From positions 1 to 61,730 of the IMG/VR virus record IMGVR_UViG_3300042465_001781: a DNA stretch of 61,730 nucleotides. One strand, given 5' to 3'. This document shows positions 10,359 to 57,143 of this stretch, piece by piece. A program made the position numbers and the translations under genes. The notes beneath the pieces are model-generated. The model was given only the letters and a program-made list of their open reading frames with translations, was not told the origin of the DNA and did no database searches. Within the stretch, counting starts at the first letter, position 1, and each line of letters begins with the position of its first letter. Source of the stretch: a virus. Lineage: Duplodnaviria > Caudoviricetes.

Positions 10359-10847
10359 TAGGAAGTCCCATTTTTAGCGATGGGCAATGACCAAAAGGGA
10401 TGTTACGAAATGGGGGCAGGGATTGTTATAATGTTACGCTTGACATTGTAAAACATAACAGAATATGTAACAAAAAGAACCCAGCATCCATGCGGGTTGC
10501 GGGGCGAAAATTGATGTATTGTTATAATGTTATATGATTTATAAGAAAGAGAGAGCCAGCCCAAAAAAGTTGCGTAATACAAATTGCGCTTGCTGCCTTG
10601 CGCGGCGCTTCAGATTTGACAGTGTTGGCGCTCTCAATTTCAAAATAAAACGTAACATGTAACAATAGGGGTTAAGTCGTTGATTTCATTGAAGAAAGTG
10701 TGTTACGAAAGTTTTTTGGCTTTGTAACATTGCCCCAAAACTGCCCAACTTTCGTAACAGACTAACAAATGTTACATTCTGGATTTGACAATACCAGCAG
10801 TAGGGGTTAATTTAGAACATAACAATATAACAGTCCGACGACGATTT

Positions 10848-19396: not shown

Positions 19397-20311
19397 ATGG
19401 CTATTTCACGCGCACAACTGCTTAAAGAATTGCTCCCCGGCCTGAACGCTTTGTTTGGTATGGAGTACGCTCGTTACGGCGAGCAGCATAAAGAAATCTA
19501 CGAAAGCGAAACCTCTGAGCGTTCGTTTGAAGAAGAGACAAAACTGTCCGGCTTCAACACCGCTCCGGTGAAGAACGAGGGCTCAGCCATTGCCTATGAC
19601 AATGCGCAAGAGGCTTGGTCTACTCGCTATACGCACGAAACCATCGCCCTTGGCTTCAGTATCACTGAAGAAGCTATCGAAGATAATCTCTACGACAGCC
19701 TGTCTTCACGCTACACCAAGTCGCTGGCTCGCGCTATGGCTAACACCAAACAGGTCAAGTCTGCTGCTGTCCTGAACAACGGTTTCACCAACAACTCCGC
19801 TTATTACGGTGGTGATGGCGTGCCTTTGTTCTCTACAGCGCACCCGCTGGTTTCTGGTGGTACCAACGCCAACGCCCCGTCAGTCGGTGTCGATTTGAAC
19901 GAGACTTCTTTGGAAGCCGCCGTTATTCAGATCGCTGCATGGACCGATGAGCGCGGTATGCTGATTGCTGCCAAGCCCCGCAAGATGATTGTTCCTCCTG
20001 CTCTGCAATTCGTTGCTACTCGTCTGTTGGAAACCAGCCTCCGTGTTGGCACCGCTGACAACGACATCAACGCAATCAAGAACAATGGTTCGGTCTCTGA
20101 AGGCTACACCATCAACAACTTCTTGACCGACACCAATGCTTGGTTCCTGACCACAGACGTGCCTAACGGTATGAAGCATTTTGTCCGCACCCCGCTGCAA
20201 AACAGCATGGACGGCGATTTCGACACCGGCAACGTGCGTTACAAGGCCCGCGAGCGTTATTCGTTCGGCTGGTCTGACCCACTGGGTATGTGGGGCTCGT
20301 CCGGTTCGTAA
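19397..20311 (+). CDS. Major capsid protein
   Basis: 304 aa; DGVPLFSTAHP and RERYSFGWSD motifs; strong RBS; followed by a terminator. Confidence 0.88.
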   Translation: MAISRAQLLKELLPGLNALFGMEYARYGEQHKEIYESETSERSFEEETKLSGFNTAPVKNEGSAIAYDNAQEAWSTRYTHETIALGFSITEEAIEDNLYDSLSSRYTKSLARAMANTKQVKSAAVLNNGFTNNSAYYGGDGVPLFSTAHPLVSGGTNANAPSVGVDLNETSLEAAVIQIAAWTDERGMLIAAKPRKMIVPPALQFVATRLLETSLRVGTADNDINAIKNNGSVSEGYTINNFLTDTNAWFLTTDVPNGMKHFVRTPLQNSMDGDFDTGNVRYKARERYSFGWSDPLGMWGSSGS

Positions 20312-20351: not shown

Positions 20352-20377
20352 AAAAGGCTCCTTCGGGAGCCTTTTTT
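20352..20377 (+). terminator. Rho-independent terminator after the capsid gene
   Basis: AAAAGGCTCC-(C)TTCG-GGAGCC-TTTTTT. Confidence 0.88.
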
Positions 20378-20381
20378 GTTG

Positions 20382-20409
20382 TTGACAGAATTTGTAGTTG
20401 GTGTATATT
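20382..20409 (+). promoter_or_regulatory. Possible sigma70 promoter TTGACA-16-TATATT
   Basis: Perfect -35 immediately after the terminator. Confidence 0.55.
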
Positions 20410-20417
20410 GCAGCTAT

Positions 20418-20491
20418 TCCGGGCCTTCCGGTGTATCAGACAGTCCCGGCTGACGACATGCAGACTGATACGCCCAACTTGCATGTAAGGA
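20418..20491 (+). ncRNA. Candidate doubly pseudoknotted leader RNA
   Basis: Four compatible pairings read by hand (see findings). Confidence 0.55.
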
Positions 20492-20498
20492 CCAAATC

Positions 20499-21071
20499 AT
20501 GGCATTGACCACATTCTCCGGCCCAGTCTCTTCCCTCAACGGTTTTATCACCACGATTTCCAATTCTTCCACTGGTGCCTCCGCCTTTAATGCGGGTGCA
20601 ACTGCCGTCACGATGACAGGTGTTGGAGGCACGGGCGGGCGCACGCTGTTCCAGATGGGCACTAACGTCGCTCTGGGTTCGTTTTCTAACGCGCTGAAAG
20701 CCGAAGTCACTTACGGTGCTACTGGCCGCACGACTGGTCTGGGTTCAGCCTTTGTTGCTGAGTTGACCCTTTCTGCCGGTACTACTTCTGGCACCTACGC
20801 TCCTGTTGAAATCGAGTTGAACGCTGGCACTGGCGCTTCTACTGGCGGAGCAACTTCAATGATTTACGCTTCGGTTAACGGCGATGGCGCTGCTACTGTT
20901 GACACCAACGGCTACCTGCTGAATCTGGCGGGCGTGACTGTTGCTGCTGCCAAATTGGCTGCTACTGGCACAATTACCAACGTCAACGAAATTACGCACG
21001 GCCTTCGTGTAAAAATTGCTGGCAGTGACTACTACCTGCTGGCCGCTACTGCCGCTAACTTCAACGCCTAA
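20499..21071 (+). CDS. Putative head fibre/decoration protein (MALTTFSGPV...)
   Basis: Ala/Gly/Thr-rich; follows the capsid gene. Confidence 0.6.
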   Translation: MALTTFSGPVSSLNGFITTISNSSTGASAFNAGATAVTMTGVGGTGGRTLFQMGTNVALGSFSNALKAEVTYGATGRTTGLGSAFVAELTLSAGTTSGTYAPVEIELNAGTGASTGGATSMIYASVNGDGAATVDTNGYLLNLAGVTVAAAKLAATGTITNVNEITHGLRVKIAGSDYYLLAATAANFNA

Positions 21072-21237: not shown

Positions 21238-21549
21238 ATGTCAATGCAAACAGACGTACTGCTGACCCAACCCCTTGGCAGTTCAAATACGTTTAAAACT
21301 CAGTCCGGCGCTGTTTTAGGCCCCTGCCGCATTAAAGCAATATACGGTACTTCCGCCGCTTTGGCGGGCACGGTTGTGCTGTATGACGGTGCTAGCAATG
21401 CGGGAAAAGCTATTGGGACGATCAGCACACCAACGGCTGCAAACGGCGGTACGTACTACCTGCTGCTGCCGGGTGAAGGCATACTGGCACGCACAGGTGT
21501 GTACGCGGTAATCACCAATGTTGATTCGGCGATGCTTGTTTATGGCTAA
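21238..21549 (+). CDS. Putative virion structural protein
   Basis: ORF track; late block. Confidence 0.65.
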   Translation: MSMQTDVLLTQPLGSSNTFKTQSGAVLGPCRIKAIYGTSAALAGTVVLYDGASNAGKAIGTISTPTAANGGTYYLLLPGEGILARTGVYAVITNVDSAMLVYG

Positions 21550-21856
21550 AACCCCAGCATGGACACGCAAAGAGGGCAAGTCAGAGAAGGGCGGCTTGAA
21601 CGCGAAGGGCCGTGCCTCGGCCAAAGCGCAAGGCATGAACTTGAAGCCTCCCCAACCCGAGGGCGGCAGCAGGCGCGACTCTTTCTGCGCCCGGATGGAG
21701 GGCATGAAGAAGAAGCTCACCAGCGCCAAAACAGCCAAAGACCCGGACAGCCGTATTAACAAAAGCCTACGGGCATGGAACTGCGCTGAAGGTGGATATG
21801 TATCTACAGCAGATGGTGTAGCCCAGCGCGGGAAAACCCGTGGAAAGATGTGCTGA
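21542..21856 (+). CDS. Basic hypothetical protein (SFCARM...LRAWNC core) with C-terminal ADGVAQRGKTRGKMC tag
   Basis: ORF track trimmed to MAKTPAW. Confidence 0.75.
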   Translation: MAKTPAWTRKEGKSEKGGLNAKGRASAKAQGMNLKPPQPEGGSRRDSFCARMEGMKKKLTSAKTAKDPDSRINKSLRAWNCAEGGYVSTADGVAQRGKTRGKMC

Positions 21857-56850: not shown

Positions 56851-57143
56851 TTCATGTTCTCCAATACAGCTTCTAAAACTTTTTGTGTGATCGGGTCATC
56901 AGAGACTACAAGTGCTCTACCACCAGCAGCTTCAATGTCCCGCATGTTCTTCTCCTGCAAGGCCGTCGGCACGCCCTTACCAGCCTTGGCTTCGATGGCT
57001 AGGAACTCACCGTTAACGCAGCATAGGAAGTCGGGCACTCCACTGTTACCGAACCCCGTGCCAATCGGCATCGCGTAGTACGCACCATGCTCTTTAAGAA
57101 TCTTCTTTATCTTCTCTTTGACCTTGCCCTCTGGTGTCATCAT
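56847..57143 (-). CDS. VRR-NUC family nuclease / putative Holliday junction resolvase
   Basis: E..V...GVPD...AIEAK...LQ...GG. Confidence 0.85.
   Translation of the reverse strand: MMTPEGKVKEKIKKILKEHGAYYAMPIGTGFGNSGVPDFLCCVNGEFLAIEAKAGKGVPTALQEKNMRDIEAAGGRALVVSDDPITQKVLEAVLENMK

What the first reader, a model, noticed from the sequence alone, without database searches (positions are those of the whole stretch)
20418..20491. Candidate doubly pseudoknotted RNA between the capsid terminator and the next structural gene
Seen: a 10-bp stem GGTGTATCAG (20430-39) / CTGATACGCC (20465-74, one G-U). Inside it, a hairpin CAG (20441-43) / CTG (20450-52) has a loop CCCGG (20445-49) complementary to upstream CCGGG (20419-23). 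The internal-loop strand ACATGCA (20456-62) is complementary to downstream TGCATGT (20480-86), which directly abuts the AAGGA Shine-Dalgarno. A TTGACA promoter would start transcription just before it. Almost every base in about 70 nt is accounted for by four compatible helices. Inference: a riboswitch-, ribozyme- or protein-responsive translational switch setting the ratio of accessory head proteins to capsid. I cannot match it to a named family.
Basis: partly seen in the sequence, partly recalled or inferred. Interest (0 to 1): 0.8.

Follow-up and report, generated by a model that had tools for sequence, protein, structure and literature searches.

The report
Knotted RNA leader of phage cement gene
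The stretch is a real, strongly conserved, doubly knotted RNA fold at the very start of the message for a capsid "cement" (decoration) protein in hundreds of uncultured water phages; it is in no RNA catalogue and probably controls how much of that protein is made.

Summary
Observation confirmed; interpretation partly supported. All four helices lie at the stated coordinates. Single-sequence folding is no better than shuffles (z = +1.0), so the case is comparative. In 228 unique IMG/VR hits to the core pattern, the stem is kept in 90.8% (control 0.4%), the 5' pseudoknot partner in 93.4% (controls 3-4%) and the 3' partner in 88.6% (controls 2-10%). Only 2 of 120 pattern hits in prokaryote genomes pass all tests. 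Gapless alignments give 96-99% pairing against 20-44% when slid, with 21-22 of 27 pairs changed on both sides.

Two corrections. A fifth 3-bp helix makes that strand the loop of a small hairpin overlapping the Shine-Dalgarno.

A -10 box ends 7-9 nt before the fold in 98 of 194 instances. The Shine-Dalgarno overlaps or abuts the fold in 182 of 191. Relatives of the downstream gene are capsid cement proteins.

Rfam 15 has no match, Mu-gpT-DE included. First readers of this scan noted the same fold in 7 other genomes. The most likely function, untested, is control of translation in cis.

The parts
19397..20311 (+). Major capsid protein gene (304 aa) upstream of the element
   Evidence: ORF. Pfam Phage_capsid_4 at 1.1e-15 and Mu-like_gpT at 2.2e-09. 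PHROG major head protein. An MCP-like gene lies upstream on the same strand in 164 of 169 motif instances with at least 1000 nt upstream.
20352..20381 (+). Terminator-like GC hairpin plus T run after the capsid gene
   Evidence: 10-pair stem, 4-nt loop, T run. A terminator-like hairpin lies within 90 nt upstream of the fold in 144 of 193 instances.
20382..20409 (+). Sigma-70-type promoter: TTGACA, 16-nt spacer, TATATT. The predicted start is about 20416-20418.
   Evidence: 11 of 12 matches. A TANNNT box ends 7-9 nt before the first helix in 98 of 194 instances. The start site is inferred, not measured.
20419..20423 (+). PK1 5' strand (CCGGG), at or within about 3 nt of the predicted 5' end of the mRNA
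   Evidence: Pairs with 20445-49. An exact complement is found upstream in 93.4% of 228 unique pattern hits, against 3-4% for controls. Variants covary: CTGGG/CCCAG, CTAGG/CCTAG, CTTGG/CCAAG and ACTATAC/GTATAGT.
20424..20429 (+). Linker. Bases 20427-30 (CCGG) can instead pair with 20419-22, a weak alternative 5' hairpin.
   Evidence: 94% paired in the CCGGG-type alignment; 76% in the other alignment, mostly G-U, with the first pair broken in 17 of 26.: -0.7 kcal/mol.
20430..20439 (+). Stem S, 5' strand
   Evidence: Pairs with 20465-74. All 10 of 10 pairs show changes on both sides. At least 8 of 10 pairs are kept in 90.8% of raw pattern hits, against 0.4% for the slid control.
20440..20455 (+). 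Junction A20440; hairpin H (CAG 20441-43 with CTG 20450-52); loop U20444 plus PK1 3' strand CCCGG 20445-49; junction ACG 20453-55
   Evidence: The middle pair of H is standard in 96.5% of 228 raw hits but in only 43 of 120 mostly chance hits in prokaryote genomes. It has high mutual information (1.42 bits).
20456..20461 (+). K 5' strand (ACATGC) in the junction
   Evidence: Pairs with 20481-86. All 6 of 6 pairs change on both sides. These are the top mutual-information pairs.
20462..20464 (+). Junction AGA. Together with 20439-41 and 20452-54 it gives three GAC triplets, one at each corner of the S/H/K junction.
   Evidence: Invariant in the homology-based alignment A1. Variants have CGA. GAC is the most enriched triplet in cement-gene leaders.
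20465..20474 (+). Stem S, 3' strand
20478..20489 (+). Mini-hairpin P5: CTT 20478-80 with AAG 20487-89. Its whole 6-nt loop GCATGT 20481-86 is the K 3' strand.
   Evidence: P5 covaries (CTT/AAG, CTC/GAG, GTG/CAC, GCG/CGC, GAG/CTC). All 3 pairs form in 167 of 197 unique instances. An exact Watson-Crick partner for K is found downstream in 88.6% of raw hits, against 2-10% for controls.
20487..20491 (+). Shine-Dalgarno AAGGA. Its first 3 bases are the 3' strand of P5.
   Evidence: The SD overlaps P5/K by 2-6 nt in 125 of 191 instances and starts 0-3 nt after P5 in 57 more.
20499..21071 (+). Downstream gene (190 aa). It occupies the position of, and shares the N-terminal peptide with, a capsid cement (decoration) protein family.
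   Evidence: ORF. No Pfam or PHROG family. The AF2 model is poor, pLDDT 56. A subfamily behind the same leader, with the same N-terminus, hits solved cement proteins. The GenBank homologue in phage DSL-LC04 is annotated 'cement protein'. Calling the window's own protein a cement protein is inference.

Best explanation
The element is a cis-acting, doubly pseudoknotted 5' leader of the mRNA for the capsid cement (decoration) protein gene that follows the major capsid gene.

Shown. About 73 nt (20419-20491) form five helices.
- A 10-bp stem S.
- A 3-bp hairpin H, whose loop pairs with the extreme 5' segment (PK1).
- A 3-bp hairpin P5, whose whole loop pairs with a strand of the S/H junction (K).

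S, H+PK1 and K+P5 meet at a three-way junction. Its three short linkers each carry an invariant GAC. The fold begins at the predicted transcription start and ends in or against the Shine-Dalgarno.

Inferred. The compact fold sets how readily the 30S subunit can engage the ribosome-binding site. It probably also shields the 5' end, and so sets the output of cement protein.

Most speculative step (about one in three). A phage protein, most plausibly cement protein not yet bound to capsids, recognises the GAC-lined junction and stabilises the closed fold. That would be an autogenous, assembly-coupled translational operator.
For: Structure:
- An alignment from loci found by protein homology (not by any RNA pattern) gives 97.5% of cells paired against 24-37% when slid, with 15 of 26 pairs changed on both sides and 0 of 500 shuffles reaching this.
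- Gapless alignments give 98.8% against 28-39% and 21 of 27 pairs, and 95.9% against 20-44% and 22 of 27 pairs.
- Unbiased helix tests on 228 unique raw pattern hits are.
- The negative control is: 120 pattern hits in prokaryote genomes give H 43, PK1 8, S 3 and K 3, and only 2 pass S, PK1 and K together.
- The top mutual-information pairs are exactly the five helices, and none reaches into the coding region.

Cis leader:
- There is one copy in the 61.7-kb genome.
- The fold runs straight into the SD and ATG, with no terminator after it.
- The SD overlaps or abuts the fold in 182 of 191 instances.
- A -10 box ends 7-9 nt before PK1 in 98 of 194.
- The fold stays with the downstream gene when the upstream gene differs (L019 and L052; 5 of 169).

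Gene identity:
- A profile of 19 downstream proteins hits Pam1 cement protein 7EEL_H at E = 4.3e-5 and KHP30 gp15 at 0.005.
- The AF2 model has pLDDT 80.4, and its top Foldseek hits are four capsid cement proteins.

A shared recognition element is possible. GAC is the most enriched triplet in 77 unique cement-gene leaders of all classes: 2.92 per 62 nt against 0.88 in coding controls, at least two copies in 75 of 77 against 47 of 225, with spacing peaks at 11 and 13 nt.
Against: - No expression, probing or binding data exist. RNA-library contigs that cover the fold come from relatives and do not prove transcription.
- In the CTAGG-type subgroup the SD is mostly not inside a helix (55 of 73 start 0-3 nt after P5), so simple SD sequestration is not universal.
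- No stable conserved alternative fold was found, so 'switching' is unsupported.
- In 23 instances a terminator-like hairpin ends only 4-8 nt before PK1, leaving no room for a promoter. The fold is therefore not always at a primary 5' end.
- Some leaders of the same sequence type precede proteins with a different N-terminus (MALSTTQSIW...). This weakens the idea that the conserved N-terminal peptide is the RNA-binding part.
- 14 of 45 unique upstream regions of homologues of the window protein lack the fold. 45 of 77 cement-gene leaders have other architectures. The protein does not strictly need this RNA.
- The window's own 190-aa protein has no detectable similarity to solved cement proteins.
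Confidence: 0.55

Rival explanations
1. A constitutive 5'-terminal armour and translation platform. The fold has no effector. By tying the 5' end (PK1) and the SD-proximal end (K/P5) into one compact knot, it protects a very abundant late mRNA from 5'-end-dependent decay or 5'-3' exonucleases. It also presents the ribosome-binding site in a fixed geometry.
For: A -10 box is placed so that transcription starts 0-3 nt before PK1 in 98 of 194 instances. Both ends of the element are engaged in pseudoknots. No conserved alternative fold exists. Cement proteins are needed in capsid-like amounts (established knowledge, recalled). The window has a near-consensus promoter.
Against: A simple 5' hairpin would do the same job. 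The invariant junction bases and the GAC enrichment across unrelated leader classes suggest specific recognition. 23 instances have no room for a promoter, so there the fold is internal to a read-through transcript.
Confidence: 0.2
2. A riboswitch. The GAC-lined three-way junction is a pocket for a small molecule or ion, and binding stabilises K/P5 and changes ribosome access.
For: A complex pseudoknotted fold with invariant unpaired bases at the junction. It sits directly on the ribosome-binding site. No protein partner is known.
Against: The regulated gene is a virion structural protein with no metabolic link. No separate expression platform or mutually exclusive helix is seen. No Rfam riboswitch matches. 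The loop and PK1 sequences vary freely, including 7-bp versions, so the conserved part is only about ten bases.
Confidence: 0.1
3. A self-cleaving ribozyme or nuclease-processing signal. It cuts just 5' of PK1, separating the capsid and cement messages and creating the same 5' end that the promoter gives elsewhere.
For: The 5' boundary of conservation is sharp at 20418/20419 (loose ends). Promoter-bearing and promoter-less variants would both give an RNA that starts at PK1. The fold is a double pseudoknot with few invariant bases.
Against: The strand order differs from HDV-like, twister and pistol ribozymes as I recall them. No Rfam ribozyme family matches. Most instances have their own promoter, which makes cleavage unnecessary. 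Nothing was tested.
Confidence: 0.06
4. A DNA-level signal (a protein-binding or recombination site), or chance complementarity with no function.
For: Single-sequence folding energy is not exceptional.
Against: Compensatory changes keep pairing, not sequence. Many G-U pairs would be A-C mismatches on the other strand (e.g. columns 16/56 UG 15 and 14/58 GU 10). Controls are near background.
Confidence: 0.02

Closest known systems
Mu-gpT-DE RNA motif (Rfam RF03012). Its described position is recalled; the accession comes from a passage of PMC7657543.
   Same: The genomic niche is the same: just downstream of a Mu-gpT-like major head gene. The window's capsid protein has a partial Mu-like_gpT match. 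Its function is unknown.
   Different: The 53-position model does not match the element. No hit appears at E <= 10 on 121 nt. In the whole genome the best scores are 13.8 and 7.4 bits, both elsewhere, against a cut-off of 49. Nothing appears at the motif in 18 + 12 related loci. Our element is about 73 nt with five helices.
Phage T4 gene 32 mRNA leader pseudoknot, an autogenous translational operator (recalled; also mentioned in a passage of PMC10690425)
   Same: A pseudoknot near the 5' end of a phage mRNA leader, upstream of the ribosome-binding site of a protein needed in stoichiometric amounts. It is the model for 'free protein represses its own translation'.
   Different: T4 gene 32 has a simple H-type pseudoknot followed by an unstructured tract. 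Here there is a three-way junction with two hairpin-loop pseudoknots ending on the SD. A binding protein is known for T4 and unknown here. No family model exists to test membership.
Ribosomal-protein operators with pseudoknots: the E. coli alpha-operon S4 site (nested double pseudoknot) and the rpsO S15 site (recalled)
   Same: A double or single pseudoknot that includes or abuts the ribosome-binding site. The mechanism is entrapment or occlusion of the 30S subunit.
   Different: These are host genes with different strand topology and sequence, and their effectors are known ribosomal proteins. No Rfam leader family matched.
Exoribonuclease-resistant RNAs
   Same: A three-way junction locked by two pseudoknots, with the 5' end tucked into the fold.
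   Different: The pairing scheme is mirrored (xrRNA scheme recalled). Here the 5' tail pairs with an apical loop and a junction strand pairs with a 3' hairpin loop. In xrRNA the 5' tail pairs with the junction and the apical loop pairs with the 3' tail. Nuclease resistance was not tested.
Candidate structured RNAs of IMG/VR (Fremin, Bhatt and Kyrpides 2023, PMC10690425). I read the abstract, sections 9 and 11 and passages. Supplements are closed.
   Same: The source collection is the same (IMG/VR). That study lists 10,006 covarying candidates, 879 of them within 25 nt of a gene start with a known domain.
   Different: The main text does not describe this element or a cement-gene leader. Whether it sits unnamed in the supplementary tables could not be checked.

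Membership tests
Mu-gpT-DE (RF03012) | Scores at or above the Rfam gathering cut-off (49 bits) with the covariance model | tested here: not met
   No hit at the element with E <= 10. In the own genome the best scores are 13.8 bits at 56943-56962 and 7.4 bits at 10766-10795. No hits at gathering score in 18 related loci, and none at E <= 1 in 12 more.
Mu-gpT-DE (RF03012) | Lies downstream of a Mu-like gpT major head gene (recalled description) | tested here: met
   The capsid protein has PF10124 Mu-like_gpT at 2.2e-09 over residues 166-224. An MCP-like gene lies upstream in 164 of 169 instances.
Polynucleobacter-1 (RF01718) | Scores with the covariance model (cut-off 37 bits). The family is a fresh-water cis-regulatory motif (table in PMC2864571). 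| tested here: not met
   No match at E <= 10 in the whole genome or on the element.
Any Rfam 15 family (4227 models, including riboswitches, ribozymes and leaders) | A match on the + strand over 20419-20491 | tested here: not met
   The only overlaps are a minus-strand CRISPR-DR56 match of 16 bits and a 12-nt COG2908 fragment of 10.6 bits, both far below their cut-offs.
HDV-like, twister and pistol self-cleaving ribozymes | The characteristic strand order of the helices and pseudoknots | tested here: not met
   The strand order here is PK1a, Sa, Ha, PK1b, Hb, Ka, Sb, P5a, Kb, P5b. It does not map onto those topologies as I recall them. No Rfam model of these classes matched.
HDV-like, twister and pistol self-cleaving ribozymes | Site-specific self-cleavage | not testable with these tools
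   Needs in vitro transcription and a cleavage assay.
Riboswitch (generic) | A conserved aptamer plus a mutually exclusive expression-platform fold | tested here: inconclusive
   A conserved junction is present. The only alternative pairing found is weak (-0.7 kcal/mol) and subgroup-specific.
Riboswitch (generic) | Specific ligand binding | not testable with these tools
   Needs in-line probing or ITC.
Autogenous translational operator (T4 gene 32 or ribosomal-protein type) | A structured leader that includes or abuts the ribosome-binding site of the regulated gene | tested here: met
   The SD overlaps P5/K in 125 of 191 instances and starts 0-3 nt after it in 57.
Autogenous translational operator (T4 gene 32 or ribosomal-protein type) | The gene product, or a partner, binds the leader and represses translation | not testable with these tools
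   Needs EMSA, toeprinting and a reporter with co-expression.
Capsid cement (decoration) protein, for the downstream gene | Sequence and fold similarity to solved cement proteins | tested here: inconclusive
   Met for the 151-aa subfamily behind the same leader: 7EEL_H at E = 4.3e-5 and 7DN2 at 0.005, and Foldseek top hits 7eel_H, 7dn2_1, 8h89_J and 7dou_4. Not met for the window's own 190-aa protein: no PDB hit at E <= 10 and an AF2 model of pLDDT 56. That protein shares only the N-terminal peptide, the gene position and the leader.

The most novel reading that the evidence does not exclude
The fold is a new class of effector-responsive riboregulator dedicated to capsid decoration. In one form it is an assembly sensor: cement protein not yet laid on capsids binds the GAC-lined three-way junction and shuts off its own translation. 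In the other it is a new small ribozyme or riboswitch fold. The three GAC corners, shared with otherwise different cement-gene leaders in marine and freshwater phages, would be the common recognition code.
Probability: 0.25. Interest if true: 0.85.

Novelty: new variant of a known kind. Interest (0 to 1): 0.68.

Why it matters
How tailed phages match the supply of accessory head proteins to capsid production is largely unknown. The few known cases (P22 scaffold, T4 gene 32; recalled) act after transcription, and for P22 the RNA signal has not been defined, as far as I recall.

This element is compact (about 73 nt) and has very strong covariation support. It is tied to a single gene family, and its boundaries coincide with the predicted transcription start and the ribosome-binding site.

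It is a ready test case for translational control of virion stoichiometry. Its fold is unusual: two 3-bp hairpins whose loops are fully used in pseudoknots around a three-way junction. It is also a clean marker for annotating cement-protein genes that have no detectable protein family. Because the promoter is near-consensus sigma-70, it can be tested in laboratory E. coli reporters.

Tried and rejected
- **Single-sequence thermodynamics.** Not better than shuffles. The nested MFE picks the PK1+K set and the centroid picks S, so nested folding cannot judge this fold.
- **MAFFT on all 23 variants and the model-based alignment A3.** Both misaligned the 3' part of divergent members. I replaced them with gapless classes of equal length. 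Model R1 also missed L052.
- **Bias in A5 and A6.** Rows were chosen with the core pattern, an exact complement for PK1 and a best complement for K. Their 100% pairing for PK1, H and K is therefore partly built in.
- **Cultured phages.** blastn with the element found only chance matches. tblastn with the 190-aa protein found none. Planktothrix phage Pag-Yong1, Pelagibacter phage HTVC027P and Roseobacter phage CRP-902 lack this fold at the same position. Only the metagenome-assembled phage DSL-LC04 has it.
- **Prokaryote genomes.** 118 of 120 pattern hits fail the helix tests, so no host could be named.
- **Sequencing runs.** All runs are contigs. Two RNA libraries hold only small shares, from relatives. 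Contigs of relatives match from 20418 to 20491 and then diverge, which fits the conserved island. This shows neither transcription nor a start site.
- **Protein of the window.** No Pfam or PHROG family. The AF2 model is too poor to search with. The Atlas gives only a weak lead to Phage_cement_2 (score 0.79). The profile has no PDB hit.
- **Pairing of the leader with the early coding region.** None found.
- **An anti-SD role for the linker.** Considered by eye, but it is not conserved, and the mutual-information scan listed no linker-to-SD pair.
- **Literature.** Searches found no description of this element. Supplements of PMC10690425 and PMC5737381 are closed and may list it or define Mu-gpT-DE.
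- **Not used.** Complex prediction, the search of protein representatives, the listing of cluster members and the look-up of encoding contigs.
Full report
**1. What is in the window.**

The window is a complete 61,730-bp IMG/VR virus record with direct terminal repeats. The region reads as follows:
- The major capsid gene lies at 19397-20311.
- It is followed by a terminator-like hairpin at 20352-75.
- Next comes a near-consensus sigma-70 promoter: TTGACA 20382-87, a 16-nt spacer and TATATT 20404-09.
- A 190-aa ORF starts at 20499.

On its own the sequence is not remarkable. Nested MFE folding gives -19.5 kcal/mol with z = +1.0. One of 20,000 shuffles reproduces the layout, but I defined that layout after the fact.

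**2. Comparative evidence from loci found by protein homology.**

Relatives of the 190-aa protein were found in 147 IMG/VR stretches, and 80 were kept. Of these, 75 have at least 200 nt upstream, giving 45 unique upstream regions. Of the 45, 31 carry the element and 14 do not. In those 14 the gene follows another coding gene.

These loci were chosen by protein, not by RNA. An 11-row alignment of them gives:
- 97.5% of cells paired, against 24-37% when the 3' partners are slid;
- 15 of 26 pairs changed on both sides;
- 0 of 500 shuffles reaching the observed values.

**3. Comparative evidence from a core-pattern scan.**

I tested 228 unique raw hits for features that the pattern does not constrain:

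| Feature | Kept | Control |
|---|---|---|
| Middle pair of H is standard | 96.5% | 43 of 120 mostly chance hits |
| At least 8 of 10 pairs in S | 90.8% | 0.4% (slid) |
| Exact 5-nt complement of the H loop upstream | 93.4% | 3-4% |
| Exact Watson-Crick 6-mer partner of the junction strand downstream | 88.6% | 2-10% |

The same pattern in 596 Gb of prokaryote genomes gave 120 rows that behave like chance: H 43, PK1 8, S 3, K 3. Only two small MAG contigs pass everything.

Two gapless alignments of equal-length members give 98.8% and 95.9% pairing, with 21 and 22 of 27 pairs changed on both sides. Their rows were selected with the help of PK1 and K complementarity, so only S and P5 are unbiased there.

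A mutual-information scan over 186 rows returns exactly these helices at the top. It finds nothing reaching into the coding region.

**4. The corrected anatomy.**

A20462 is invariant. T20480 covaries with A20487 as part of a 3-bp helix P5.

The fold is therefore:
- PK1 5' strand, 20419-23;
- linker;
- S 5' strand, 20430-39;
- junction A;
- hairpin H, 20441-43 with 20450-52, whose loop (20445-49) is the PK1 3' strand;
- junction ACG;
- K 5' strand, 20456-61;
- junction AGA;
- S 3' strand, 20465-74;
- linker CAA;
- hairpin P5, 20478-80 with 20487-89, whose whole loop (20481-86) is the K 3' strand.

Both pseudoknots are of the 'hairpin loop plus single strand' kind. S, H+PK1 and K+P5 meet at a three-way junction, and each corner reads GAC (20439-41, 20452-54, 20463-65).

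Frequent G-U pairs put the RNA on the + strand.

Evaluated separately, S is worth -13.1, PK1 -6.0 and K -5.8 kcal/mol.

A possible alternative 5' hairpin (20419-22 with 20427-30) covaries within the CCGGG subgroup. It is weak at -0.7 kcal/mol and poorly kept elsewhere.

**5. Context.**

I parsed 197 unique instances.

*Upstream gene.* An MCP-like gene lies upstream on the same strand in 164 of 169 with enough flank.

*Promoter.* A TANNNT box ends 7-9 nt before PK1 in 98 of 194. Transcription would then begin 0-3 nt before the fold.

*Terminator.* A terminator-like hairpin precedes the fold in 144 of 193. In 23 instances it ends only 4-8 nt before PK1, with no room for a promoter.

*Shine-Dalgarno.* It overlaps P5/K by 2-6 nt in 125 of 191 instances and starts 0-3 nt after P5 in 57. 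The overlap is universal in the CCCGG type (92 of 92). It is the minority in the CCTAG type (18 of 73).

*Copy number.* The window holds one copy.

**6. The gene behind it.**

The downstream ORFs are 81-331 aa, with a median of 164. Only 82 of 197 resemble the window protein by BLASTP. Most still open with the same peptide, M-A-x-T-T-F-S-G-P-V....

A profile of 19 members of a 151-aa subfamily, all behind the fold, hits solved cement proteins:
- cyanophage Pam1 (7EEL_H) at E = 4.3e-5;
- Helicobacter phage KHP30 gp15 (7DN2) at 0.005.

An AF2 model of one member has pLDDT 80.4 and a disordered N-terminal arm. Its best Foldseek matches are four capsid cement proteins.

GenBank annotates the homologue in the metagenome-assembled phage DSL-LC04 as 'cement protein', and that phage carries the fold.

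The window's own 190-aa protein has a different, unrecognised C-terminal part. Calling it a cement or decoration protein rests on position, N-terminus and leader.

**7. A wider family.**

I sampled by cement-protein homology, independent of the RNA. This gave 77 unique leaders.
- 10 have the strict core pattern.
- 32 have the general architecture: S at least 7 of 8, PK1 at least 5, K at least 5, with the AC...GAC...GA junction.

The 32 include a subclass with a quite different 6-7-bp PK1 (ACTATAC/GTATAGT). In that subclass the K helix lies inside the Shine-Dalgarno.

The other 45 fall into other leader types, among them that of Roseobacter phage CRP-902.

Across all 77, GAC is the most enriched triplet:
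- 2.92 per 62 nt, against 0.88 in coding controls;
- at least two copies in 75 of 77, against 47 of 225;
- spacings peaking at 11 and 13 nt, the spacings seen in the window.

I take this as a lead to a shared recognition element, not a finding.

**8. Known families.**

Rfam 15 gives nothing on the element or at the motif in 30 related loci. Mu-gpT-DE (RF03012) shares the genomic niche, and several first readers of this scan suspected it. It scores 13.8 bits at best, elsewhere in the genome, against a cut-off of 49. Polynucleobacter-1 (RF01718) gives nothing.

The strand order does not fit HDV-like, twister or pistol ribozymes as I recall them.

The IMG/VR survey of Fremin et al. (PMC10690425) may list the element among its 10,006 candidates. 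Its main text does not describe it, and its supplements are closed.

Literature searches found no description.

**9. Mechanism.**

*Shown:* a conserved five-helix fold that spans from the predicted 5' end to the ribosome-binding site of one gene family.

*Inferred:* it acts in cis on translation initiation and perhaps on stability.

My odds for the sub-mechanisms:

| Sub-mechanism | Odds |
|---|---|
| Protein-responsive operator | about 0.3-0.35 |
| Constitutive armour or platform | 0.2 |
| Riboswitch | 0.1 |
| Ribozyme or processing signal | 0.06 |

Points against a simple SD-occlusion switch:
- the free SD in most CTAGG-type members;
- the lack of a stable alternative fold;
- promoter-less variants.

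**10. Verdict.**

The element is a new, widespread RNA family of a known general kind, a structured phage mRNA leader at a ribosome-binding site. Its architecture is unusual. It has been seen repeatedly by this scan in other genomes, and its function is untested.

Noticed in passing
20499-20550 and the downstream ORFs of L082-L321: The genes behind the fold share a conserved N-terminal peptide of about 16 residues (M-A-x-T-T-F-S-G-P-V-x-S-x-N-G-F). Their remaining 80-330 residues fall into several unrelated-looking types: only 82 of 197 are BLASTP-similar to the window protein. In the AF2 model the N-terminus is a disordered arm. This looks like a common capsid anchor carrying swappable outer domains.
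   Followed up: partly
L447-L526, upstream 130 nt; L446 1891-2032: Cement-gene leaders that lack this fold fall into at least two other recurring types. One is CCTGAC-hairpin-GAC...GACAGGAG, as in Roseobacter phage CRP-902. The other is a short GAC-hairpin-GAC type. All are rich in GAC triplets spaced about 11-13 nt apart.
   Followed up: partly
L218, L301, L320, L307, L252, L159 and others: In 23 instances the GC-rich terminator-like hairpin ends only 4-8 nt before the first helix, with no room for a promoter. The fold must then be read through from the capsid gene, or the hairpin is part of a longer variant of the element.
   Followed up: no
L381 and L383: The only true instances among 120 pattern hits in prokaryote genome assemblies lie on short contigs (6.5 and 9.9 kb) of a gammaproteobacterial MAG and a Spirochaetaceae MAG. 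They are probably phage contigs binned with the MAGs.
   Followed up: no
20418 and 20491 (table 7): Contigs of related phages in lake metagenomes and in one freshwater RNA library align to the window only from 20418 to 20491 and diverge on both sides. At the DNA level the fold is a conserved island between variable promoter and coding sequences.
   Followed up: partly
21518-21856: A 112-aa ORF three genes downstream carries DUF6321 (2.3e-18). It also matches the C-terminal ends of many long PHROG families.
   Followed up: no
L081 3904-4007 (Planktothrix phage Pag-Yong1): The same position (capsid gene, then a 'minor capsid protein' starting M-S-T-T-L-F-P-A-P-V) holds a GC-rich spacer with a long inverted repeat, not this fold.
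   Followed up: no
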